From the NCBI GenBank assembly GCA_964353785.1, contig CAYGWK010000002.1, forward strand, positions 40,293 through 104,292: 64,000 bases of DNA, given 5' to 3'. Every line of letters starts with the position of its first letter. The first letter of the stretch is position 1. The translations under genes were made by a program, and so were the position numbers. This document shows positions 2,043 through 11,275 of this stretch, piece after piece. Origin of the DNA: an uncultured Gammaproteobacteria bacterium (GTDB lineage Bacteria; Patescibacteriota; Microgenomatia; CAYGWK01). Under the pieces are notes generated by a model. That model saw nothing but the letters and a program-made list of their open reading frames with translations, had not been told where the DNA came from and ran no database searches.

Positions 2043-4448
2043 TTAGGAAGGAAGATAGACTGGAGCAAAACCTTTAAGGCTTTCTCTTTTAGGAAAGATT
2101 TTCTTTTCTTTCTTAAGATAAAGAGCAACCCTCAAGGCTTCCTCAAGGCTTGAGACAAAGACAAATTTAATATCTTTTTTGACTCTGGAAGGAACGTCTT
2201 CCAAATCTTTTTTATTTTCCTTTGGTAAAACTATCACTTTAAGTCCGGCCCGATGAGCGGCAATTACTTTTTCTTTAACTCCGCCAATCTCCAAAACCCG
2301 ACCCCGAAGAGTTATTTCTCCAGTCATCCCTACTTCCCGATGGGTGGGAATTTTTGTTAAGGCGGAAACCAAGGCGGCGGCCATGGCCACTCCGGCCGAG
2401 GGTCCATCTTTTGGAACCGCTCCCTCAGGAACATGAATATGAACATCCAAATTTTTGGCAAAATTTTCTTTAAGACCCAGAGTTTTCCAGTGACTGCGAG
2501 CAAAAGAAAAAGCAGCTTGGGCTGATTCTTTCATTATATCTCCCAAGTGACCAGTCAGAATGAGTTGTCCTTTACCGGGCATTAAAGCCACTTCAATGAA
2601 AAGAACGTCTCCGCCTGCTTCGGTCCAGGCCAGACCAGTCGCCATTCCCACTTCATTTTTCTTTTCCGCCAAAGCTGAAGTGTATTTTTGTGGTCCTAAA
2701 AACTTCCGAGCCTCCAAAATTCCAACTTCTCCTTTAACTTTTTTCCCTTGGGCTTTTTTCTTAGCTACTTTTCGTAAAATCGTTGCCAACATTCTCTCAA
2801 GTTCCCGAACTCCAGCCTCTCTGGTATAGCGACGAATCACCTCGTAAAGTGCCTCATCTTGAATTTTTATTTTTTCAAGCCCGTGAGCCCTAACTTGTTT
2901 TGGCCAAAGAAATTGCCTGCCGATATGAAATTTTTCTTCCTCGGTGTATCCTGGGAAACTGATGACTTCAAACCTGTCCCGAAGCGCTGGCGGAACAGTA
3001 TCTAAAATATTCCCAGTGCAGATAAACATCACCTCTGATAAATCAAAAGGAACCTCAAGATAATGGTCCGAGAATTCTTTATTTTGTTCCGGATCTAAAG
3101 CCTCAAGAAGTGCCGCCGAAGGGTCTCCTCGAAAATCAATGCCAACTTTATCAATTTCATCAAGCATAAAAACTGGGTTTCTGGTTCCGGCGTTTCTCAC
3201 TCCTTGAATTATTCTTCCAGGCAAAGCACCAACATAAGTTCGTCTATGTCCCCGAATTTCTGCCTCATCCCGAATTCCCCCCAAAGAAATCCGAATAAAT
3301 TTTCGTCCTAACGCCCTGGCGATTGATTTTCCAATCGAAGTCTTTCCCACCCCGGGAGGTCCAATAAAACAAAGAATTGAGGGAGTCCCGACCTCTTCTT
3401 TTTTCTGTTTCTTGCTCTTTAATTTCATTACCGCCAAATACTCAACCACCCGCTCTTTCACCTTCTTTAAACCATAGTGGTCTTCCTCCAAAATTTTGGC
3501 GGCTCGGCTAATTCCGGTATTGTTGGGGGTGGCTTTGTTCCAAGGCATCAAGATAACCCAATCAAGCCAATTTTCAATGTAAGGTCGTTCTGGAGACATT
3601 GGCGGCATTTGGGCAAAACGAGAAAGTTCTTTCTCAACTTTTTTTCTTACGTCCGAAGACATTTTAGCCTGGTGGATTTTTTGCCTTAATTCTTTGACCT
3701 GCTCGTCTTCTTCACCAGTTAACTCTCCAAGTTCTTTTTCAATTGTTCTTTTTCTTTCGCGTAAAACCGCCTCTTTCATTTCTTTTTCAAACCGTTCCTG
3801 GGTTTTAGAGGTAATTGACCGTTCAAGTTCTAAAACCCTCAATTCTCGAGTCAAATATTCACCCACCTTTTTAAGTCTGTCTCCAACGACAGCCATTTCC
3901 AAAAGCGCCTGTTTTTCCTTGGCTTTTAAGTCTAGAGTTGAGGTAATTTGGTCAGTCAGCTCGGCCGAAGAAACCCCGGAGGAAAGTCTCATCAAAACCA
4001 TGATGTCAATTGGTTTTCCTAAATTGAAAGCCCGACGATATTCAGAAATCAAATGATTTGAAACTGCTTTGACTTCTTCTGTTTCTTTAATAATTTCTGG
4101 GATTTCTGAAACCTTGACTAAAAGAAAAGGGACATTTTGAACAATTTCTTCAAGCCTAATTCTAGCCAGTCCTCTGGCAATAGCAATAGTTGTTCCATCT
4201 GTCTCCAGGATATTTTCCAAGGAAACTAAGGTTCCAACCGGGTAGAGATCTTCTTTTTCTGGTTCAGCCACTCGGGGGTCTTTTTGGGTAAAAACGGCTA
4301 AAAATCGCTCAGGAGAGCCAGTAAAAGCGGCCTTAACGGCGCTGTTTGAGCGAGGACGACCGAAAGTTAAAGGAAATTCAGTGTAAGGAAAAACGACGCT
4401 GTCTCGTAAAGCCACGGCGGGGATAATTTTTGCTGATTTGTTTACCAT
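2043..4448 (-). CDS. lon: ATP-dependent Lon protease
   Basis: 801 aa; LON N-domain, AAA+ Walker A GPPGVGKTS, catalytic Ser motif PKDGPSAG, Lys motif in C-terminal protease domain. Confidence 0.95.
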   Translation of the reverse strand: MVNKSAKIIPAVALRDSVVFPYTEFPLTFGRPRSNSAVKAAFTGSPERFLAVFTQKDPRVAEPEKEDLYPVGTLVSLENILETDGTTIAIARGLARIRLEEIVQNVPFLLVKVSEIPEIIKETEEVKAVSNHLISEYRRAFNLGKPIDIMVLMRLSSGVSSAELTDQITSTLDLKAKEKQALLEMAVVGDRLKKVGEYLTRELRVLELERSITSKTQERFEKEMKEAVLRERKRTIEKELGELTGEEDEQVKELRQKIHQAKMSSDVRKKVEKELSRFAQMPPMSPERPYIENWLDWVILMPWNKATPNNTGISRAAKILEEDHYGLKKVKERVVEYLAVMKLKSKKQKKEEVGTPSILCFIGPPGVGKTSIGKSIARALGRKFIRISLGGIRDEAEIRGHRRTYVGALPGRIIQGVRNAGTRNPVFMLDEIDKVGIDFRGDPSAALLEALDPEQNKEFSDHYLEVPFDLSEVMFICTGNILDTVPPALRDRFEVISFPGYTEEEKFHIGRQFLWPKQVRAHGLEKIKIQDEALYEVIRRYTREAGVRELERMLATILRKVAKKKAQGKKVKGEVGILEARKFLGPQKYTSALAEKKNEVGMATGLAWTEAGGDVLFIEVALMPGKGQLILTGHLGDIMKESAQAAFSFARSHWKTLGLKENFAKNLDVHIHVPEGAVPKDGPSAGVAMAAALVSALTKIPTHREVGMTGEITLRGRVLEIGGVKEKVIAAHRAGLKVIVLPKENKKDLEDVPSRVKKDIKFVFVSSLEEALRVALYLKKEKKIFPKRESLKGFAPVYLPS

Positions 4449-4603: not shown

Positions 4604-5260
4604 TTATTCGTGAATTATAATTCTTGTTCCCGGGTTATCTCCAGTTGACCTAACTGCATTTAGATTATCAACCGAGGGAGTTGTCCAGTAAAAAAGTTTT
4701 TCCGCTACTGGCGTGGGTAAATTAGTACATCCATGACTCATGGTTTGACCAAAGTTATTGTGCCAATAAGTTCCGTGAAGCCCAAAACCATTCTGATAAT
4801 ACATAATATAAGGGACGTTTGGAAGGTAATAATAGGTATGAAGAGCGCGACTTCCCCCAGACATTTTGGCATACTTAAACTTAGACCAGATTCTGTACTC
4901 GCCTGTCGGTGTCCTGGCCCATTTTCCAGTAGAAACCAAGGATTCTAAAAAAAGTCTCTCCCCTTCCCAAGCCCGAAGTTTTTGTTCAGATAAATCAACC
5001 TCAATCCATTTTTCCTCGCCAGTTGCCTCTCCCAGAACTTTTCGTTCGTTTGGGGAAAGTTCCCATCTGGCTGCCAAAGGGGCAGAAATTTCTTTTCCCT
5101 CAAAATAAGCCTGCGTCTCCCCAAACTGGAATCCTCCAGTTCCTTGACAGTGACAACCAGGTTTTTCAAGCAAAAATTTTTGGCTAGACAAAAACAAAAC
5201 CAAAATCGCCAAAAACAAAGCCGAGGAAAGAAGAATTAAGAAAAATCCTTTTTGTTTCAT
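4604..5260 (-). CDS. L,D-transpeptidase (YkuD/ErfK domain), secreted
   Basis: N-terminal signal/TM, catalytic motif HGTYWHNNFGQTMSHGCTNL (His…Ser-His-Gly-Cys). Confidence 0.8.
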   Translation of the reverse strand: MKQKGFFLILLSSALFLAILVLFLSSQKFLLEKPGCHCQGTGGFQFGETQAYFEGKEISAPLAARWELSPNERKVLGEATGEEKWIEVDLSEQKLRAWEGERLFLESLVSTGKWARTPTGEYRIWSKFKYAKMSGGSRALHTYYYLPNVPYIMYYQNGFGLHGTYWHNNFGQTMSHGCTNLPTPVAEKLFYWTTPSVDNLNAVRSTGDNPGTRIIIHE

Positions 5261-5311
5261 TCTAAATTAATAATATCACGAACTGGCAAAATATAGTATT
5301 ATTGATATTGT

Positions 5312-5593
5312 ATGGACTCTCAAACCAGCACCTACGAGAAACCATTGTCAACAACTTTTTTAAGACAACTGCTGATTTACTCTGTAAGCTTATTTTTACC
5401 CCCTCTGGGAATTTGGCCTGCTATTAAATATTTGCGTCAACAGGATGAAAAATCAAAAAAGATTGGTTTAGTAGCGCTTTTTTTAACCATAATTTCAATA
5501 GTGATAACAAGTTGGTTAACTATTAGTTTCATAAACTCATTCAACAAAGAACTTGGTAACCAGCTCAATCTTTACCAAGGTATAGAGTACTAA
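5312..5593 (+). CDS. small hypothetical membrane protein (2 TM)
   Basis: 93-aa ORF with two hydrophobic helices; no homolog recognised. Confidence 0.35.
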   Translation: MDSQTSTYEKPLSTTFLRQLLIYSVSLFLPPLGIWPAIKYLRQQDEKSKKIGLVALFLTIISIVITSWLTISFINSFNKELGNQLNLYQGIEY

Positions 5594-5620
5594 TATTAGC
5601 CTCGCAAGGGGAAATTGTCT

Positions 5621-6172
5621 TCAGGGCATACACGAGGGCCAAATATAGGTTTGACCAAGAGATAAAATAAAAGCGGCTGTCTGGACAGCCTCCTCAGCAT
5701 TGAAACGCAGGTCTGGGTTGATGTCTTCACCTAATAAATTACGGTACTTAATCCAGGTACTCGACGTGAATTGATAAAGTCCGGCGTAGCTAAGATTTGT
5801 TGCCAAGGGATTGAATCCGGACTCGCAAACAGCAATATATCTTAAGACATTCGGGTCAACGCCATATTGTCCTGCAAATCTTTCGATAAAACCATTTATC
5901 TGCTCAGAGCTAACCGATGATTGAGGAGTTGGGGTTGGCGTTGGTTTGAGGGTGGGCGTCGGCGTGGGTTTAGGCTTGGGCGTAGGAGTTGGAGTATTCG
6001 TTGGTTCTGGAGTTGGAGTTGGCGTCAAAGTTGGAAAAGGGGTCGGAGAAATAATCGCAGATCGCTGAGAAAGAATGTCTCCTTCCGAAAAGATATTTTT
6101 TTCAAAAAGGAAAATTCCCCCGCCTCCGATAAGAAGACCTACAAAAACCGACATAAAAAAAGCTTTCCACAC
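5621..6172 (-). CDS. membrane-anchored transglycosylase-like (Rpf/SLT-type) protein with Pro/Thr-repeat linker
   Basis: N-terminal TM, (PT)n linker, C-terminal motif [10 protein letters not shown]…[12 protein letters not shown] typical of Rpf-like transglycosylase domain. Confidence 0.6.
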
Positions 6173-6266
6173 CTTAACACCATATTAAAGCATTGTTTAG
6201 GAAAATTGAAAAGTGGAAAAAATTGTCTTCAGGCTCAAAATTTGCTAAAATTAATCTGCATTTTAT

Positions 6267-6337
6267 TGGAGAGTCGTCTAACGGTAGGACAGTAGCCTCT
6301 GGAGCTACGAATCTAGGTCCGAATCCTAGCTCTCCAG
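6267..6337 (+). tRNA. tRNA-Gln (anticodon CUG)
   Basis: Acceptor TGGAGAG/CTCTCCA (U1-A72 as in bacterial tRNA-Gln), U8, D-stem GTCT/GGAC, anticodon stem GTAGC/GCTAC loop CTCTGGA, T-arm CTAGG-TCCGAAT-CCTAG, discriminator G. Confidence 0.75.
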
Positions 6338-6342
6338 CAAAA

Positions 6343-6410
6343 TCTAGGTTCGCCTGCCCCGCTGAAGCCGAATGCTAAACTTTTGTGGGGAATCCTAGTC
6401 CCGCAGCAAA
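6343..6410 (+). repeat. two partial direct copies of tRNA-Gln 3' half (6343-6362 aatctaggtTCGcctgcc; 6389-6410 gaatcctagtcccgcagcaaa) immediately downstream of the tRNA
   Basis: Direct comparison with tRNA T-arm/acceptor 3' strand gaatcctagctctccagcaaaat. Confidence 0.55.
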
Positions 6411-6976
6411 TGAAAGATAAGATTCTCAGAAAAATTTCTAAAGTTGATTATCTTCGAGAGATATTATTACGTCACAGAACTGAGTATAAAAAAATACTAG
6501 AGATAATAACCAAGCGCAACCTCACGCATAAAAGGGGTATTGGATTCTGGTCACTTACCAGAATGATTTTCCCAGTTATTGAAACCGTTGCCGATGTTGT
6601 CGAAAAGGAAAAAGAAAAATTTCTTAGTGAGGAACTGGGAGTCCCTTTTGGATTTGTTGTTTGGGAAATGTATCGCAATTCACTGATGCATACTGATGAA
6701 TTAAGGTACATAGTCTATAAAAGGAAAACAATTTTTTGGTCAATTCAATTAGGAAATGAAGATATTGGCCACCTAATTACCAAGCAGACTGATTCAATGT
6801 ATGCTGCAATACATTTGAGTATTCCTAAACTATATAGAGATTTAGAAACATTTTTAATATCAGAAATTTCCAAAAACGACAAGTCGATTATAAATGTTCA
6901 AGTTGGTAGTTACTTTTCGAAAAAAAGTAAAGGAATTCTATTAAAAGAACTCAAAGAAATACATTCAAAATATTAG
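6383..6976 (+). CDS. hypothetical protein with HEPN-like R-N-x3-H motif (YRNSLMH); possible start at 6410
   Basis: 197-aa ORF; alpha-helical-looking, motif EMYRNSLMHTDE matches Rx4-6H of HEPN RNases (inference only). Confidence 0.45.
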   Translation: MWGILVPQQMKDKILRKISKVDYLREILLRHRTEYKKILEIITKRNLTHKRGIGFWSLTRMIFPVIETVADVVEKEKEKFLSEELGVPFGFVVWEMYRNSLMHTDELRYIVYKRKTIFWSIQLGNEDIGHLITKQTDSMYAAIHLSIPKLYRDLETFLISEISKNDKSIINVQVGSYFSKKSKGILLKELKEIHSKY

Positions 6977-6988
6977 CTATGAAGAAAG

Positions 6989-7030
6989 TTATAAGGATTA
7001 ATTGGGTCCTGACCGACACGCCCAGCCAAG
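6989..7030 (+). repeat. island inter-cassette repeat R2 (tataaggatTaaTTgggtcctgaccgacacgcccagccaag)
   Basis: Homologous to R3 (8306-8347) and R5 (9378-9413). Confidence 0.5.
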
Positions 7031-7070
7031 ACGGGCACCCAAGTGTAGCTGAATTCCATCAATCAATTCC

Positions 7071-7709
7071 ATGTCAATAAACGACGCGGTAACAATTCCA
7101 GAAGAGATAAAGATTCAAATGCAAATGCAGGCGTACCTCGACAGAGCGATTGATTATTATATTTTTGCACGCAAGGCAGTTATGCTTGGTGTGTTACCCG
7201 TAGGCGGTAGCTTGTTTCATATAGCGGTGGAGATGGCGCTACACTGCGGATTATCAACTAAGTATTCCCAGACTGAACTTGAGAAAAGATTCTTGCATCA
7301 CGAACTTCCTTATATGTGGTCTGAGTTTAAAACAACTTTTATAAGTACTAAACTTTCTAAGTTTGATAAATTCGTAAATCATCACCGGCAGTGGAAAGAA
7401 TTGAGATATCCGAAGAGTAAATCAAAAGGATCGATAATCTTTTTTGGTCGTACTAAACCTGATCCTGAAGTTATGAAGAGAAATATGGCGAATTTTCCTA
7501 AGAGCAACATTCAAATAGAAATAAACCTTGAAGACATGGATGAGTTTATGACCGCTTTAATTCTAGCAATTGGTATAAACCCTGACCATATTAAACTCCA
7601 CCTTCAACACAACGCTGAGTTGCAGAAACTTTATCTTGACGAGAATGTTCATCCATTGTTTAGCGCCGATACAAAGGTTAGCTCTACTACTCTCTTACAA
7701 AGGCAATGA
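7071..7709 (+). CDS. hypothetical protein, classical HEPN-domain-like N-terminal half
   Basis: SLFHIAVEMALHCGL…HHELPYM…QWKELRYP resembles PF05168-type HEPN helix pattern (FHaqQavEkaLK…RYP); inference. Confidence 0.45.
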   Translation: MSINDAVTIPEEIKIQMQMQAYLDRAIDYYIFARKAVMLGVLPVGGSLFHIAVEMALHCGLSTKYSQTELEKRFLHHELPYMWSEFKTTFISTKLSKFDKFVNHHRQWKELRYPKSKSKGSIIFFGRTKPDPEVMKRNMANFPKSNIQIEINLEDMDEFMTALILAIGINPDHIKLHLQHNAELQKLYLDENVHPLFSADTKVSSTTLLQRQ

Positions 7710-8311
7710 TGGGAAATAACATGAATAAAAAAATTAAATGTCAAGAATGTAATAGAGAATTCACAAATATGACCACGCATTTAATAAAAGCGCATGGTCT
7801 AAGTAAAAAAGACTATCTTCTGAAATATCCTGGAGCCAAAATAGTTTCAGATACCTTTCGAGAATGGCAGAGAAATAGAATGAAAAAATTATACGAAAGT
7901 GACAATGTTGGTTATAGAAAGATAGCTGGTAGTAGAACATTCGATTTTGTTAAAAATAATAAATTAAGATTATTACTCCAAAGAGACTACCAATCTGCAA
8001 AAAAATGTTTACAAAACGAATTATGGAAACCCGCAATCATTCTTTACGGTTCTCTAATTGAGGCAGTTTTAAGAGAGGCCACAGAGACAGAAGATTTCAA
8101 GTCTGCGCTAGATAAGGCGCTTAAAGAAGAAATAATTTCCGACACGGAATTTCATCAAATACATGTCGTGAAGGACTTTAGAAATTTTGTCCATTTACAT
8201 AAAGAGCTATCAGAAGGAGGGGTAAGGGTAATAAGTGACTATTGGGCAAGAACCCTTTCCGAAATATGCGAGTCGCTTATAAAAAGATTTAGAAAAGTGG
8301 GGAAACTATAA
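7706..8311 (+). CDS. Ros/MucR-type C2H2 zinc-finger protein fused to HEPN-like C-terminal domain
   Basis: KCQECNREFTNMTTHLIKAHGLSKKDY = C-x2-C-x9-H-x4-H-G-L-S-x3-Y as in Ros/MucR (PF05443); C-terminal DFRNFVHLH R-x4-6-H; start overlaps previous ORF stop by 4 nt (operon). Confidence 0.55.
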   Translation: MMGNNMNKKIKCQECNREFTNMTTHLIKAHGLSKKDYLLKYPGAKIVSDTFREWQRNRMKKLYESDNVGYRKIAGSRTFDFVKNNKLRLLLQRDYQSAKKCLQNELWKPAIILYGSLIEAVLREATETEDFKSALDKALKEEIISDTEFHQIHVVKDFRNFVHLHKELSEGGVRVISDYWARTLSEICESLIKRFRKVGKL

Positions 8312-8347
8312 GGATGAAAGGGTCCTAGACCAGCCTGCTCAGCAAAA
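8306..8347 (+). repeat. island inter-cassette repeat R3 (tataaggatgaaagGGTCCTAGACCagccTGCTCAGCAaaat)
   Basis: Contains palindromes GGTCCTAGACC and TGCTCAGCA and tRNA-Gln-3'-end-like tcctag…cagcaaaat. Confidence 0.5.
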
Positions 8348-8420
8348 TAAAAAATCCTTAAGTATCTACCTATCACACACCGGGCTATGATATAATAAGT
8401 TGCCATAAAAAAATATTTCT

Positions 8421-8996
8421 ATGCCAAACTTAGATGAACTTCTTAAAGAAAGAGCCGAAAGACAAAAAGAGTCAGATGAAAGATGGGAAGAATTAAAAAG
8501 ACAGAGAGTAGAAGAAGAGAGAAAAGATCAAGAATATTTTGATCAACAAGTTGCACCATATGAAGAGGCTTTTAGGGTAGCAGGCCTTTATATTGATTTA
8601 AAGGCCTTGTTTCATCATCTTGACACTCAAGGTGCCCCACCACGGGTTGATGAAGTTATTCACATAAGAGCACATCCGGAAAATGATTATTTTGTTTATT
8701 CCTCGATGCAACCAAAAGATAAAACACTAAGCACTGTTATGTCTGCAATGCTTCGAAGAGAACTCAGAGAATACCATAGAACTATTATCGGTTATGGATT
8801 CAGGATTGACTGGAATTATCATTCTATAGATATCCTATCGGAAATTGATCCTACGAGTGACCAACAGATATTTGTTATAAAAGAATATCAACTCGATGTG
8901 CATCATGACCGCCTCATTCCCAATCGGCCATTGCGATCCTTCAAGACTCTTGAGCCAGATGCAATTCGACAAAAACTTTTAAATATTATTACTTAA
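8421..8996 (+). CDS. hypothetical protein (charged N-terminal coiled region)
   Basis: 191-aa ORF preceded by TATAAT-like box at ~8388; no recognised domain. Confidence 0.4.
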   Translation: MPNLDELLKERAERQKESDERWEELKRQRVEEERKDQEYFDQQVAPYEEAFRVAGLYIDLKALFHHLDTQGAPPRVDEVIHIRAHPENDYFVYSSMQPKDKTLSTVMSAMLRRELREYHRTIIGYGFRIDWNYHSIDILSEIDPTSDQQIFVIKEYQLDVHHDRLIPNRPLRSFKTLEPDAIRQKLLNIIT

Positions 8997-9012
8997 ATAC
9001 ACCAGTGACTAT

Positions 9013-9038
9013 TCTAGTCTAGGCCAGTCTGCTCGGGG
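9013..9038 (+). repeat. island inter-cassette repeat R4 (tctagtctaggccagtctgctcgggg)
   Basis: Shares ctag-N-ccag-N-ctgctc-gg core with R1/R3/R5. Confidence 0.4.
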
Positions 9039-9112
9039 AATTTTTATTCCAATATTCTTAAGAATTTGAGAATAGCGAAAAAGATTACCACAATTTGAGG
9101 CAGTTTTGAAGT

Positions 9113-9141
9113 GTTGACAAACTACCATCGCGCGTTGATAC
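9113..9141 (+). promoter_or_regulatory. candidate promoter TTGACA-17-GATACT upstream of small membrane ORF
   Basis: TTGACA at 9113-9118, GATACT 17 nt downstream. Confidence 0.3.
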
Positions 9142-9195
9142 TTTTAATTTATAGTGTTATATTTTAATCATATGAAGAAAGGGAGGTGGAAAAAA

Positions 9196-9366
9196 ATGCA
9201 TGATACTGCCGGTGCGGGCGCTGTTTATGGCTTGGGTTTAGTCGGCGCAGTAGTCTATTACATCCAACATGCAAAAACATTTGGGGAAGGAGTGCTTGGT
9301 TTCCTCAAGGCCTTGGTCTGGCCTGCCATGCTAATATATAAACTTCTGGAATTTCTGAAAATGTAG
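9196..9366 (+). CDS. small hydrophobic protein (2 TM, ~56 aa); ORF track start 9154 less likely
   Basis: Strong SD GGGAGGTG 7 nt before ATG at 9196; MHDTAGAGAVYGLGLVGAVVYY… two helices. Confidence 0.45.
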   Translation: MHDTAGAGAVYGLGLVGAVVYYIQHAKTFGEGVLGFLKALVWPAMLIYKLLEFLKM

Positions 9367-9377
9367 ACACTTTTACG

Positions 9378-9413
9378 GGACTGAAAGTTTCTAGCCCGGC
9401 CTGCTCAGCACGA
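9378..9413 (+). repeat. island inter-cassette repeat R5 (ggactgaaagtttctagcccggcctgctcagcacg)
   Basis: ~80% identical to R3. Confidence 0.5.
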
Positions 9414-9429
9414 ACAAAGGAGATCAATT

Positions 9430-10005
9430 ATGGAAAGAACTACAATAAGTCAAATATCGGTTACAGAGCCGAAAGAAAAAGAAAGTAATCTTGATGAATT
9501 GTACATAAAACAGGGACTAACAAATAATCAAGTTGAGCAGTTAATCTTCTACTCGAACACGGACAAAGAAGTCCAAAGATTCACTTCTGACCCAAAACGC
9601 TTCAAAGATAAAAAAGCATTCGAAAAATGGAGACAAAAAGGTAGGATTATTTACACCATAACAGACCTTGAGGATAATTTACTTGGAATTATCTGGTTTG
9701 GCGAGGAACCCTTACCTCAAAGAGAATTTACCCAAACCTTTAACCCTCAAGAATTCGGGATTACTTTTGCTATCAGAATTTATGGAGAAGCCAGAGGTAA
9801 AGGTCTAGCAAGAAAATTTATGACCGAAACTTTTAAACACCTTATGAGCTCTAGTGTTTACGAAAAAATGGAGAATAAAGGAATCTGGCTAGAGACATCC
9901 ATAGATAATACTCCGGCTCTTAAAGCCTATGAGAAATTCGGCTTCAAGCAAATCACAAATCCAAATGAGAACCAAAAGATATTAATGATTCTTAAAGAAT
10001 TTTAA
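9430..10005 (+). CDS. GNAT-family N-acetyltransferase
   Basis: Motif A-like RGKGLARKF and C-terminal …ALKAYEKFGF; 14-nt convergent overlap with gltX. Confidence 0.7.
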   Translation: MERTTISQISVTEPKEKESNLDELYIKQGLTNNQVEQLIFYSNTDKEVQRFTSDPKRFKDKKAFEKWRQKGRIIYTITDLEDNLLGIIWFGEEPLPQREFTQTFNPQEFGITFAIRIYGEARGKGLARKFMTETFKHLMSSSVYEKMENKGIWLETSIDNTPALKAYEKFGFKQITNPNENQKILMILKEF

Positions 10006-11275
10006 TCGCCGCCTTTAGTCGTTTTAGTGTTTCTTCTTTTCCTAAAATTTCCACTGAATCCGTAATTGGGGGGGTGATTTTGGAACCGGTGATGGCGATG
10101 CGAAAATTCATAAAAAATTCTCCTGTTTTCCAACCTTTCTCTTTTACTAATTCCTGAAGTGTTTGTCCCAGATTTTTCTTATCCCAGGTTTTGAGTTTTT
10201 CTAAGACTTCAAGGGCTAAAGATAATTGTTCTTTTGCCTCTTTAGTAAATAATTTTTTGTCAACCCTGGGCTCTTTGAAAAAGAATCCAGCCAGAGCAGG
10301 ATAATCTGAAAGTTTTGTCAGTCTTTCCTTGACCAAAGGAATAGTTTGATTAATTAAATTGGGGCTGGCTCCTTTTGGAGCAAATTGTTCAATTAATTGA
10401 ACTAGTTGGCTATCAGACTTTTTTCTAATATATGCTCCATTTATCCAGTCAAGTTTTTCAAAATTAAAAATTGGAGCAGTCGTCACCACTCTTTCAAAAC
10501 TAAAAAGTTTTATAAATTCCTCTAAAGGAAAAATATCTTTTTCTTTTGGATGAGACCAGCCTAAAAGACAAAGAAAATTAACTAAGGCTTCGGGTAAATA
10601 TCCTTGGTCTTTATACCAAGATAAAGCGACCGGGTTTTTTCTTTTTGATATTTTTGACCGGTCCGGATTTCGCAAAAGTGGCATATGGGCAAAAAATGGT
10701 AGTTTTTCTCCTAGAGCTTGGTAAAGGAGAATTTGTTTTGGGGTATTTGAAATATGTTCTTCAGCCCTGATGACATGAGAAATTTTCATGGCCAAATCAT
10801 CAACCACGCAAGCAAAATTATAAGTCGGATAGCCATCAGATTTAAGCAAGACAAAGTCTTCGATATTCTCATTTTTGAAAATAATTTTTCCCCGAACTAA
10901 ATCATCCCAAGAAGTTTGGCCAGTTTTGGAAACTTTGAGACGAACCGCTCCCTCATCTTCGTAGGCTTGTTTTTTCTCCAAAAGTTTTTGACAAGTTTTT
11001 TTATAAAGAGAAAGTCGCTCCGATTGCCGATATGGTCCAAAAGGACCGCCAACATCCGGTCCTTCATCGTAGAGTAAACCAAGCCAACGAAGACCCTCAA
11101 AAATTGCTTTTTCCGCTTCGGGGACATGACGCTTAACATCAGTATCCTCAATCCGCAAAATAAATTTGCCTTTAAATGCCCGCGCAAAAGCGAAATTAAA
11201 AAGAGAAAGATAGGCGGTGCCAACATGAGCAAAACCGGTTGGCGAGGGAGCAATTCTTGTCCGAACTTTTTCCAC
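9992..11275 (-). CDS. gltX: glutamate--tRNA ligase (short form)
   Basis: HIGH-type motif PTGFAHVGT, RIEDTD, KISKR (KMSKS). Confidence 0.9.
   Translation of the reverse strand: MEKVRTRIAPSPTGFAHVGTAYLSLFNFAFARAFKGKFILRIEDTDVKRHVPEAEKAIFEGLRWLGLLYDEGPDVGGPFGPYRQSERLSLYKKTCQKLLEKKQAYEDEGAVRLKVSKTGQTSWDDLVRGKIIFKNENIEDFVLLKSDGYPTYNFACVVDDLAMKISHVIRAEEHISNTPKQILLYQALGEKLPFFAHMPLLRNPDRSKISKRKNPVALSWYKDQGYLPEALVNFLCLLGWSHPKEKDIFPLEEFIKLFSFERVVTTAPIFNFEKLDWINGAYIRKKSDSQLVQLIEQFAPKGASPNLINQTIPLVKERLTKLSDYPALAGFFFKEPRVDKKLFTKEAKEQLSLALEVLEKLKTWDKKNLGQTLQELVKEKGWKTGEFFMNFRIAITGSKITPPITDSVEILGKEETLKRLKAAIKIL

What the first reader, a model, noticed from the sequence alone, without database searches (positions are those of the whole stretch)
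6383..7709. Two adjacent HEPN-like proteins (R-N-x3-H and classical FHxxxAxE…RYP patterns)
ORF 6383-6976 contains EMYRNSLMH, the R[NH]xxxH signature seen in Abi and Cas13-type HEPN nucleases. ORF 7071-7709 shows the helix pattern SLFHIAVEMALHCGL…HHEL…ELRYP of PF05168 HEPN. A cluster of HEPN domains without an obvious MNT partner suggests an abortive-infection or toxin module rather than a canonical HEPN/MNT toxin-antitoxin pair.
Basis: inference. Interest (0 to 1): 0.55.

Follow-up and report, generated by a model that had tools for sequence, protein, structure and literature searches.

The report
HEPN-type genes in tRNA-anchored cassette array
Two neighbouring genes of an uncultivated (CPR/Microgenomates-type) bacterium, plus a third next to them, do look like HEPN-type RNA-cutting defence/toxin proteins, but they are not a working pair: each is a separately acquired unit in a string of single-gene "cassettes" sitting behind a tRNA-Gln gene.

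Summary

The next gene, ORF3 (7706-8311), is a zinc-finger + DUF4145 (HEPN-clan) protein.

The "module" reading is not supported:
- ORF1 and ORF2 relatives never co-occur elsewhere.
- They share no conserved neighbour.
- There is no MNT or small antitoxin ORF.

ORF2 relatives lie at the ends of type I/III restriction operons, beside an OLD-like ATPase, or next to serine recombinases.

A ~42-nt repeat separates ORF1 | ORF2+ORF3 | ORF4/ORF5 | GNAT. The same repeat delimits co-oriented, mostly single-gene units in many low-GC metagenome contigs, and these arrays start behind tRNA-Gln wherever the upstream end is visible.

The HEPN genes are new members of a known superfamily. The cassette array is the more novel lead.

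The parts
6267..6338 (+). tRNA-Gln (CTG), anchor of the array
   Evidence: ARAGORN and Rfam tRNA, 56.7 bits. A co-oriented tRNA-Gln precedes the repeat arrays or the ORF3 homologue in L038, L082, L096, L130, L150, L152/153, L154/155 and L156.
6390..6409 (+). Direct repeat of a tRNA-Gln 3' end (GAATCCTAGTCCCGCAGCAA), ending directly at the ORF1 start codon
   Evidence: 81% identical to the 3' end of the tRNA at 6321-6341 (family D13). It matches the 3' end of the tRNA-Gln allele seen in L130. L154 has an analogous repeat of its own tRNA 3' end just before the ORF3 homologue.
6410..6976 (+). ORF1, 188 aa: unannotated HEPN-like family with invariant R[H/N/D]x3H (R89, H94)
   Evidence: No hit in Pfam, NCBIfam, PADLOC, PHROGs or PDB sequences.
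6986..7028 (+). Junction repeat, diverged copy carrying the longer 3' extension (..CCAGCCAAGACGGGCACCC..)
   Evidence: nhmmer with an HMM built without window sequences, E = 1.1e-4. The extension is shared with copies in L082, L119, L134 and L128.
7071..7709 (+). ORF2, 212 aa: HEPN fold (residues ~11-115) of the AF0298-like type, plus a ~95-aa C-terminal extension of unknown fold
7706..8311 (+). ORF3, 201 aa (start more likely ATG 7721): C2H2 MucR-like zinc finger + DUF4145 (HEPN clan), invariant RNxxHxH
   Evidence: Pfam DUF4145 22.4 bits (cut-off 23.1) and ROS_MUCR. Many of its 141 relatives carry PF13643 and/or PF05443. Invariant C12, C15, H25, H30 and R159, N160, H163, H165.
8304..8345 (+). 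Junction repeat, canonical copy (ACTATAAGGATGAAAGGGTCCTAGACCAGCCTGCTCAGCA); it contains the ORF3 stop codon
   Evidence: nhmmer E = 1.1e-11.
8421..8996 (+). ORF4, 191 aa, no recognisable domain
9018..9035 (+). Junction repeat, weak or decayed copy (core only)
   Evidence: Matches the 16-nt core pattern exactly, but nhmmer E = 0.93.
9154..9366 (+). ORF5, small hydrophobic protein (start probably ATG 9197, after GGGAGGTGG)
   Evidence: read from the sequence.
9376..9410 (+). Junction repeat
   Evidence: nhmmer E = 1.4e-8.
9430..10005 (+). GNAT acetyltransferase, last unit, convergent with GluRS
   Evidence: Pfam Acetyltransf_3 / Acetyltransf_1.

Best explanation
Window 6339-10005 is a strain-variable array of separately acquired, mostly single-gene units. 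It lies directly behind a tRNA-Gln gene. The units are separated by a conserved ~42-nt repeat.

Three of the units' genes encode HEPN-superfamily proteins:
[quoted passage not shown] It most likely acts as a homodimeric, metal-independent RNase (inferred).
- ORF2 is a divergent AF0298-like 'HEPN-T' domain. It keeps the arginine (R112), lacks the canonical histidine, and has an alternative invariant histidine (H77) in the helix-2/helix-3 insert. It also has an extra C-terminal domain. It is either an RNase with the alternative site or a non-catalytic binding/regulatory subunit (inferred).
- ORF3 is a zinc-finger + DUF4145 protein.

They are solitary defence/addiction-type cargo genes that have accumulated at an integration hot spot. 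They are not an ORF1-ORF2 two-component module and not a HEPN/MNT pair.

Shown: folds and motifs, non-conserved adjacency, the repeats, the tRNA anchoring, and variability of the segment.
Inferred: RNase activity, toxicity or anti-phage role, and the repeat being a recombination site.
For: ORF1:
- R89 and H94 are the only invariant columns in 86 relatives. Position 90 is H/N/D in 85/86 and E58 is E/D in 84/86.
- The motif lies at the end of predicted helix 81-93, followed by non-helical residues. Anantharaman et al. 2013 (PMC3710099) describe exactly this for HEPN.
- One relative (P0157) is fused to a Pfam HEPN_AbiU2 domain.

ORF2:
- Its residue pattern matches the AF0298 type described in PMC3710099.

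ORF3.

Independence of ORF1 and ORF2:
- tblastn finds no co-occurrence in L001-L013, and neighbours share no similarity.
- ORF2 relatives follow type I or type III R-M genes (L010, L011, L012), or sit beside an OLD-like ATPase (L002). ORF1 and ORF2 relatives lie near related large serine recombinases.

Array:
- The repeat occurs 3-4 times in 6.9-9.4 kb and nowhere else in 64 kb.
- In 23 of 23 multi-copy metagenome loci, all copies are on one strand.
- Of 60 inter-repeat units (median ~690 bp), 47 hold one ORF, with heterogeneous functions.
- Unit order is swapped between L051 and L095.
- A syntenic relative, L014, lacks the whole segment.
Against: - No sequence profile links ORF1 or ORF2 to any Pfam HEPN family or PDB chain.
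- hhalign between the three families is null.
- The AbiU2 fusion is a singleton.
- ORF2 lacks the catalytic histidine, so nuclease activity is uncertain.
- ORF2 and ORF3 are only ~0-11 nt apart with no repeat between them, so a local functional pairing cannot be excluded.
- No recombinase lies near the locus in the window.
- The repeat has no conserved hairpin.
- No experiment or transcript data are available.
Confidence: 0.62

Rival explanations
1. One reading: ORF1 and ORF2 (possibly with ORF3) form one multi-HEPN abortive-infection or toxin module whose parts work together, for example as a heteromeric composite active site.
For: All genes are co-oriented and closely spaced. ORF2 and ORF3 overlap or abut. 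HEPN domains act as dimers, and tandem or fused HEPNs exist (P0157; PMC3710099).
Against: There is no co-occurrence of the families in any other locus, and no conserved neighbour. A junction repeat separates ORF1 from ORF2. ORF3 relatives occur directly behind tRNA-Gln without ORF1 or ORF2 in L150, L152 and L154.
Confidence: 0.1
2. ORF1 is not a HEPN nuclease but another helical-bundle protein (for example DinB-like or another four-helix scaffold). In this reading its conserved Arg/His serve ligand or metal binding.
Against: The full HEPN signature, with the H/N/D after R and the acidic residue in helix 2, sits at the correct topological position. The best five structural matches are all HEPN clan. 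DinB-type His triads are not conserved: H135 is variable.
Confidence: 0.2
3. The 42-nt repeat is not a recombination or junction site but a shared regulatory signal (promoter, 5' leader, terminator or RNA-processing site). In that case the gene string is an ordinary operon-like stretch and not a cassette array.
For: No hairpin and no adjacent integrase. The 5' part contains a TATAAT-like box. Downstream start codons often follow within 4-25 nt.
Against: It is confined to the variable segment in 64 kb. 22 of 77 unit ORFs lie on the opposite strand. The same gene occurs in either orientation relative to the repeats (L048 versus L128), and unit order is permuted between L051 and L095. Arrays are anchored at tRNA-Gln, with direct repeats of the tRNA 3' end.
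Confidence: 0.25

Closest known systems
AF0298-like HEPN-T domains (Pfam PF05168 clade; PDB 2hsb, 1ufb, 3o10 sacsin HEPN)
   Different: No match to the PF05168 HMM, even at E = 5, in any of 17 relatives. No MNT partner. Extra ~95-aa C-terminal domain.
MNT-associated HEPN toxins (type II/VII HEPN-MNT; PDB 7ae2, 8xdj, 5yep)
   Same: For ORF1: best structural matches, with an Rx4H motif having a polar residue after R.
   Different: No adjacent nucleotidyltransferase. ~50 aa longer, with a beta-rich insert after the motif and two extra helices. No sequence similarity.
Abi-type solitary HEPN proteins (AbiU2, AbiJ, AbiV) and the integron-cassette HEPN family (PDB 3jrt)
   Different: No profile match to those families. 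Anti-phage activity untested.
DUF4145 (PF13643) fused to zinc ribbons
   Same: For ORF3: a HEPN-clan domain with conserved R..H, fused to a Zn-binding module. This architecture is listed in PMC3710099 Table 1.
   Different: The N-terminal module is a MucR-like C2H2 finger. The gene is conserved directly downstream of tRNA-Gln in several CPR lineages.
Integron cassette arrays, and tandem accretion of integrase-less elements at tRNA genes (CIME-type)
   Same: Co-oriented repeats delimit mostly single-ORF units of ~0.4-1.5 kb with heterogeneous functions. Units are permuted between genomes. The array is anchored at one site, with new units apparently entering next to the anchor. Direct repeats of the tRNA 3' end are present.
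   Different: No attC-type hairpin or core sites, and no IntI next to the array. The units are far smaller than typical tRNA islands. The repeat is conserved across genomes rather than copied from the resident tRNA.

Membership tests
HEPN superfamily (ORF1) | Rx4-6H motif, polar N/D/H after R, at the end of helix 3 | tested here: met
   R89 and H94 are invariant in 86/86. Position 90 is H/N/D in 85/86. The motif lies at the C-terminal end of predicted helix 81-93. Criterion from PMC3710099.
HEPN superfamily (ORF1) | Conserved acidic residue in helix 2 | tested here: met
   E58 is E/D in 84/86 and lies in predicted helix 46-63.
HEPN superfamily (ORF1) | Four-helix up-down bundle matching solved HEPN structures | tested here: inconclusive
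HEPN superfamily (ORF1) | Profile match to a described HEPN family | tested here: not met
   No Pfam, NCBIfam, PADLOC, PHROG or PDB-sequence hit. Only a fusion partner (P0157) matches HEPN_AbiU2.
HEPN superfamily (ORF1, ORF2, ORF3) | Metal-independent endoribonuclease activity | not testable with these tools
   Needs biochemistry.
HEPN-T / PF05168, AF0298-like (ORF2) | HEPN fold | tested here: met
HEPN-T / PF05168, AF0298-like (ORF2) | Basic residue of the motif kept, canonical H absent, alternative conserved H in the helix-2/3 insert | tested here: met
   R112 is invariant at the end of helix 93-112. No H lies within 6 residues after it. H77 is invariant, between helices 67-73 and 79-89. Criterion from PMC3710099.
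HEPN-T / PF05168, AF0298-like (ORF2) | Score above the Pfam PF05168 gathering threshold | tested here: not met
   No PF05168 hit for ORF2 or any of 16 relatives, even at E <= 5.
DUF4145 / PF13643 (ORF3) | HMM match and conserved R..H | tested here: met
   ORF3 itself scores 22.4 bits against a cut-off of 23.1. Dozens of its relatives carry precomputed PF13643 hits. R159, N160, H163 and H165 are invariant.
HEPN-MNT toxin-antitoxin pair | Adjacent minimal nucleotidyltransferase (antitoxin) gene | tested here: not met
   No NTP_transf_2-type hit in ORF1-ORF5. The spacers hold only 22-35-aa ORFs overlapping the repeat. Relatives' loci also lack one next to the gene.
Integron | attC sites: imperfect hairpins with R''/R' core sites | tested here: not met
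   RNAalifold on 79 copies predicts no pairs. The core-site consensus was recalled from memory and is not matched by the sequence.
Integron | IntI integrase adjacent to the array | tested here: not met
   No recombinase is near the locus in the window. Flanks of other arrays show no recurrent integrase; there is one XerC/D-like gene in L034.
Integron | Array of co-oriented repeats delimiting mostly single, functionally unrelated ORFs that reshuffle | tested here: met
tRNA-targeted integrative islands (tandem accretion) | Location at the 3' end of a tRNA gene, with direct repeats of that end | tested here: met
   tRNA-Gln precedes the array in the window, L038, L082, L096 and L130. Repeat 6321-6341 / 6390-6410. 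Analogous repeat in L154.
tRNA-targeted integrative islands (tandem accretion) | Integrase encoded in the island | tested here: not met
   None in window 6339-10005.

The most novel reading that the evidence does not exclude
The locus may be one instance of an undescribed, integron-like gene-cassette system of CPR (Microgenomates-type) bacteria.

Its features would be:
- Arrays of up to at least 8-10 mostly single-gene units.
- Anchoring at the 3' end of tRNA-Gln.
- Units delimited by a conserved, non-hairpin ~42-nt repeat. The last 25 nt of that repeat have the length and register of a tRNA-Gln T-loop-to-CCA end.
- Mobilisation in trans by a recombinase not encoded at the array.
- A cargo pool that includes HEPN-type and other defence or housekeeping-variant genes.

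A sub-lead: the Zn-finger + DUF4145 gene (ORF3) is conserved as the neighbour of tRNA-Gln in several divergent lineages. It could be part of the platform rather than cargo.
Probability: 0.35. Interest if true: 0.8.

Novelty: new member of a known kind. Interest (0 to 1): 0.45.

Why it matters
For the HEPN genes themselves the gain is modest.
- ORF1's family has at least 169 cluster representatives at E <= 0.001 and no database annotation. It can now be proposed as a further HEPN family with a clean catalytic signature.
- ORF2 extends the AF0298-type 'alternative histidine' HEPN group, and its relatives are linked to R-M operons.
- Both are testable candidates for RNA-targeting defence or addiction functions in CPR bacteria, whose immune repertoire is poorly known.

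The context is the larger point. Suppose the repeat-delimited, tRNA-Gln-anchored arrays are genuine cassette platforms. Then CPR bacteria, with tiny genomes and no reports of integrons in the papers I could search, would have their own way of stockpiling and shuffling single accessory genes. The conserved 18-nt core gives a direct handle for mining them.

Tried and rejected
Protein-level searches that gave nothing:
- Pfam, NCBIfam, PADLOC and PHROGs scans of ORF1 and ORF2.
- PDB sequence searches with single-family and deep profiles; only noise was returned.
- hhalign among the ORF1, ORF2 and ORF3 family alignments: probability < 1%.
- hhalign of A5 against the C-terminal half of P0157 gave a spurious 99.9%, because P0157 itself is a row of A5. 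Discarded.
- Foldseek-PDB for ORF1.
- The afdb50 library was unavailable.
- The Pfam scan of 86 ORF1 relatives gave one HEPN_AbiU2 hit. It turned out to be a fused second domain, not homology of the ORF1 domain.

Partner genes:
- Search for a conserved partner of ORF1 or ORF2: none found.
- Search for an antitoxin or MNT in the spacers: none found.

The repeat:
- Rfam found nothing.
- The tRNA model on the truncated element found nothing.
- RNAalifold found no structure.
- Literature searches for CPR integrons and for the core sequence found nothing relevant.
- Comparison with attC, REP and dif consensus sequences from memory showed no convincing match.
- Recombinase search in the window with serine recombinase, RAYT-like and XerC/D-like queries from array loci: none found.
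- High-GC matches to the core pattern in the metagenome scan lack flank conservation and were treated as chance.
Full report
**Setting.** The window looks like a CPR/Microgenomates-type genome: 36-44% GC and small housekeeping genes. The named relatives come from Candidatus Amesbacteria, Microgenomates, Roizmanbacteria and 'Patescibacteria group' MAGs.

The gene order around the finding is as follows:

| Feature | Coordinates | Strand |
|---|---|---|
| Lon | 2043-4448 | - |
| L,D-transpeptidase-like | 4604-5260 | - |
| small membrane ORF | (not recorded) | (not recorded) |
| SLT transglycosylase | 5621-6172 | - |
| tRNA-Gln (CTG) | 6267-6338 | + |
| ORF1, ORF2, ORF3, ORF4, ORF5, GNAT | 6410-10005 | all + |
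| GluRS (convergent) | 9992-11275 | - |

**Observation.** Both ORFs and both motif sets are present.
- ORF1's TTG start at 6383 is probably an over-extension. All nine close relatives start at the equivalent of ATG 6410, giving 188 aa. This ATG directly follows a 20-nt repeat of a tRNA-Gln 3' end.
- ORF2 is 7071-7709.
It is also HEPN-clan. It has a MucR-like C2H2 zinc finger (C12, C15, H25, H30 conserved) followed by DUF4145, with an invariant R159-N-x-x-H163-x-H165.

**ORF1.** No curated library recognises it.
- A word-indexed search found only 9 close relatives.
- An exhaustive profile search found 169 cluster representatives at E <= 0.001, mostly 180-230 aa.
- In an alignment of 86 of them (mean column identity 13%), the only invariant columns are R89 and H94.
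- The residue after R is H (52), N (21) or D (12) of 86. Position 58 is E/D in 84/86. R51 and P55 are near-invariant.
- Anantharaman et al. [quoted passage not shown]
- The AlphaFold model (pLDDT 79.8, pTM 0.75, from only 9 sequences) fits this mapping:
  - helices at 11-39 and 46-63 (the latter carrying E58);
  - a short inserted helix at 68-75;
  - helix 81-93, ending in R89...H94;
  - a beta-rich insert at ~100-137;
  - then helices 138-154 and 171-187.
- Foldseek finds nothing.
- One relative, P0157 (427 aa, a singleton cluster), carries an ORF1-like domain followed by a Pfam HEPN_AbiU2 domain (E = 1.3e-10) with its own RDx4H. It is therefore a two-HEPN-motif protein.
- I judge ORF1 to be a HEPN-superfamily protein of an undescribed family with probability about 0.8. 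The signature is strong and the fold evidence is weak.

**ORF2.** Again there is no curated hit, even at E = 5, in any of 17 relatives.
- The invariant residues map as follows:
  - H50 and E54 in helix 2;
  - H77-E78 in the helix-2/3 insert;
  - H104-H105, K109 and R112-Y113-P114 at the end of helix 93-112.
- No histidine follows R112 within six residues.
- PMC3710099 describes exactly this variant for the AF0298-like HEPN-T group and AbiV. The basic residue is kept, the canonical H is lost, and an alternative conserved H from the helix-2/3 insert possibly forms an alternative active site.
- Residues ~120-212 form an additional, partly low-confidence domain of unknown fold.

**Are they a module?** I found no evidence that they are.
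- I fetched 13 loci carrying ORF1 or ORF2 relatives. In none do the two families co-occur, and none contains ORF3 or ORF4 relatives.
- The genes immediately next to the relatives share no similarity with each other.
- ORF1 relatives lie 4-5 kb from large serine recombinases, with PriCT primase-type and YaaC genes nearby (L001, L006), or behind a 913-aa protein (L007).
- ORF2 relatives lie in these contexts:
  - as the last gene after a type I R-M operon plus a YgjP-like gene (L010);
  - after type III R-M genes plus further unknown genes (L011, L012/L013, there abutting a serine recombinase);
  - beside an OLD-like AAA_15/TOPRIM ATPase (L002-L005);
  - at the edge of a prophage-like region (L008).
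- The serine recombinases in L001, L006, L009, L012 and L013 are mutually related.
- This is the neighbourhood pattern of solitary defence-island or mobile-element cargo. It agrees with the reported association of HEPN-T and Abi-type HEPN genes with R-M operons (PMC3710099).
- No MNT is present. The 6976-7071 and 8311-8421 spacers contain only 22-35-aa ORFs that overlap a repeated DNA element.

**The repeated element and the array.** A 16-nt pattern, CTAGNCCRGYCTGCTC, occurs three times in the intergenic spacers of the locus, against 0.08 expected, and nowhere else in 64 kb.

A scan of public metagenome contigs with an 18-nt version returned two classes of hit:
- chance hits in high-GC contigs, without flank conservation;
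- more than 50 low-GC (33-44%) contigs in which the core is embedded in a conserved ~42-nt element, consensus AGTTATAAGGATAGAAAGGTT-CTAGACCGGCCTGCTCAG-C. A minority carries a 3' extension, CAAGAYGGGCACCC.

An HMM built only from non-window copies finds the window copies below:

| Window position | E-value | Location |
|---|---|---|
| 8304-8345 | 1e-11 | after ORF3 |
| 9376-9410 | 1e-8 | after ORF5 |
| 6986-7028 | 1e-4 | after ORF1, with the 3' extension |
| 9018-9035 | 0.9 | after ORF4 (weak) |

Properties of the repeat in the metagenome loci:
- It occurs in dense arrays. Counting copies with up to 4 core mismatches, L128 has 9, L048 has 10 and L038 has 7. At the stricter cut-off of 3 mismatches these are 8, 8 and 6.
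- In all 23 loci with at least two copies, every copy is on the same strand.
- The 60 inter-repeat units have a median length of ~690 bp. 47 contain exactly one ORF. 55 ORFs are co-oriented with the repeats and 22 are opposite.
- Their products are functionally unrelated: GIY-YIG, RNase T, NUDIX, glyoxalase, methyltransferases, LD-carboxypeptidase, MFS and hydrolases.
- Units move. Two units occur in the order A-B in L051 and B-A in L095 (99% and 86% identity). An LD-carboxypeptidase unit has opposite orientation relative to the repeats in L048 and L128.
- RNAalifold finds no conserved pairing in 79 copies, Rfam has no match, and I found no paper containing the core sequence.
- The element is therefore unlike integron attC sites or REP hairpins.

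**Anchoring at tRNA-Gln.**
- In the four array loci where a tRNA precedes the repeats, it is a co-oriented tRNA-Gln (L038, L082, L096, L130), as in the window.
- In the window, the 3' end of the tRNA (6321-6341) is repeated at 6390-6410 in the form of another tRNA-Gln allele, immediately before the ORF1 start. L154 shows the same kind of repeat of its own tRNA 3' end before the ORF3 homologue.
- The last 25 nt of the element (GG-TTCTAGA-CC-GGC-CTGCTCA-G-CCA) have the length and register of a T-loop, T-stem remainder, acceptor strand, G73 and CCA. They are 13-16/25 identical to real tRNA-Gln 3' ends. This register was chosen post hoc, and the tRNA covariance model does not score it. I treat it as a lead only.
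- ORF3 relatives (49-70% identical) lie directly downstream of tRNA-Gln in L150, L152/153 and L154/155, and 1.3 kb downstream in L156, where a NYN-domain gene and a small ORF lie in between. The outer flanks differ between these loci. In L150 and L152 the ORF3 relative is followed by the same element.
- Relative to those genomes, ORF1 and ORF2 in the window look like insertions between tRNA-Gln and ORF3.
- A syntenic close relative of the window genome (L014; GluRS 85%, Lon 83% identical) lacks everything from the SLT gene to the GNAT gene. It has a different, inverted tRNA-Gln in a 1.6-kb segment instead. The segment is therefore strain-variable.

**Mechanism (inference).**
- ORF1 most likely forms a homodimer. 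Its two R[N]x3H motifs, together with E58, would build a metal-independent RNase site, as in other HEPN proteins. The beta-rich insert and C-terminal helices could gate or target the activity.
- How a solitary toxin-like RNase is kept in check is unknown. Trigger-dependent activation or low basal activity are the usual options.
- ORF2 may use the H77/R112 alternative site, or may be a non-catalytic HEPN. Its recurrent position at the end of R-M operons suggests an accessory, possibly suicidal or dormancy-inducing, arm of restriction systems, as proposed generally in PMC3710099.
- ORF3 combines a nucleic-acid-binding zinc finger with a DUF4145 domain that keeps R and H.
- The array itself is best explained by repeated site-specific insertion of small integrase-less units at the tRNA-Gln 3' end, with the 42-nt element as the junction. 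The enzyme is not identified. No recombinase is near the locus in the window, and none is recurrent beside other arrays. One XerC/D-like gene and a few serine recombinases were seen.
- The regulatory-signal alternative remains open at about 25%.

**Comparison and novelty.** HEPN genes as solitary cargo of mobile or variable DNA, including integron cassettes (3jrt), are known.
- ORF2 works like, and structurally belongs with, AF0298-type HEPN-T domains, but it fails the Pfam model.
- ORF1 has the HEPN signature but no profile link, so it is best called a new family of a known superfamily.
- ORF3 is a member of DUF4145 with a known type of fusion.

The finding as written is therefore a new member of a known kind, of modest interest. 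The repeat-delimited, tRNA-Gln-anchored arrays are, as far as my searches show, undescribed. They are the most novel reading not excluded by the evidence.

**Verdict.**

| Item | Verdict |
|---|---|
| Observation | confirmed |
| Interpretation | partly supported: HEPN yes, cooperative module no |
| Interest | 0.45 overall |
| Probability of the novel case | about 0.35 that the context is a new kind of cassette platform, which would deserve about 0.8 |

Noticed in passing
window 6986-7028, 8304-8345, 9018-9035, 9376-9410; loci L030-L149 (e.g. L128, L048, L038, L049): A conserved ~42-nt repeat (core CTAGACCGGCCTGCTCAG) delimits co-oriented, mostly single-gene units in many low-GC metagenome contigs. 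It has no hairpin, no Rfam family and no literature hit. Unit order and orientation differ between contigs.
   Followed up: yes
window 6267-6338 and 7706-8311; L150 3888-4570, L152 3896-4597, L154 3762-4570, L156 1651-3594: The Zn-finger + DUF4145 gene family (ORF3) is conserved immediately or closely downstream of a co-oriented tRNA-Gln in at least five different genomic contexts. This suggests a functional or mobile linkage between this HEPN-clan gene and tRNA-Gln.
   Followed up: partly
window 6321-6341 versus 6390-6410 (and 6343-6363): The 3' end of tRNA-Gln is repeated 69 nt downstream in the form of a different tRNA-Gln allele, ending at the ORF1 start codon. Just after the tRNA lies a T-arm-like fragment (TCTAGGTTCG...), also seen after the tRNA in L082. 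These look like att-site remnants.
   Followed up: partly
window 5261-9991 versus L014 9282-10900: A syntenic relative (77-88% DNA identity in the flanks) lacks the SLT gene, the small membrane ORF and the whole ORF1-GNAT array. It has a different tRNA-Gln in inverted orientation. The Lon-to-GluRS interval is a variable hot spot.
   Followed up: yes
P0157 (427 aa, singleton, 41.5-kb contig): A single protein combines an ORF1-like domain (Rx4H) with a C-terminal Pfam HEPN_AbiU2 domain (RDx4H). It is a natural two-HEPN fusion, seen once only.
   Followed up: partly
L153 3656-3910, L156 1402-1650, L008 6976-7212; 4 of 77 array units: Very small (78-84 aa) stand-alone GIY-YIG nuclease-domain genes recur inside the arrays, directly upstream of tRNA-Gln, and next to an ORF2 relative. 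They could be cargo or part of the mobilisation machinery.
   Followed up: no
L001, L006, L009, L012, L013, L048: Mutually related large serine recombinases (24-42% identity to the L048 query) lie beside ORF1 or ORF2 relatives. One interrupts the repeat array in L048. A RAYT-like Y1 transposase lies 1.5 kb upstream of the tRNA-Gln in L038.
   Followed up: partly
window 6383 versus 6410: The public annotation of ORF1 (P0296, 197 aa) uses the upstream TTG at 6383. All relatives and the tRNA-end repeat indicate the ATG at 6410.
   Followed up: yes
window 5921-6050 (minus-strand SLT gene 5621-6172): A tandem-like 12/24-nt periodic repeat encodes a Pro/Thr-rich linker ([24 protein letters not shown]) in the SLT transglycosylase. 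This is an ordinary low-complexity linker.
   Followed up: no
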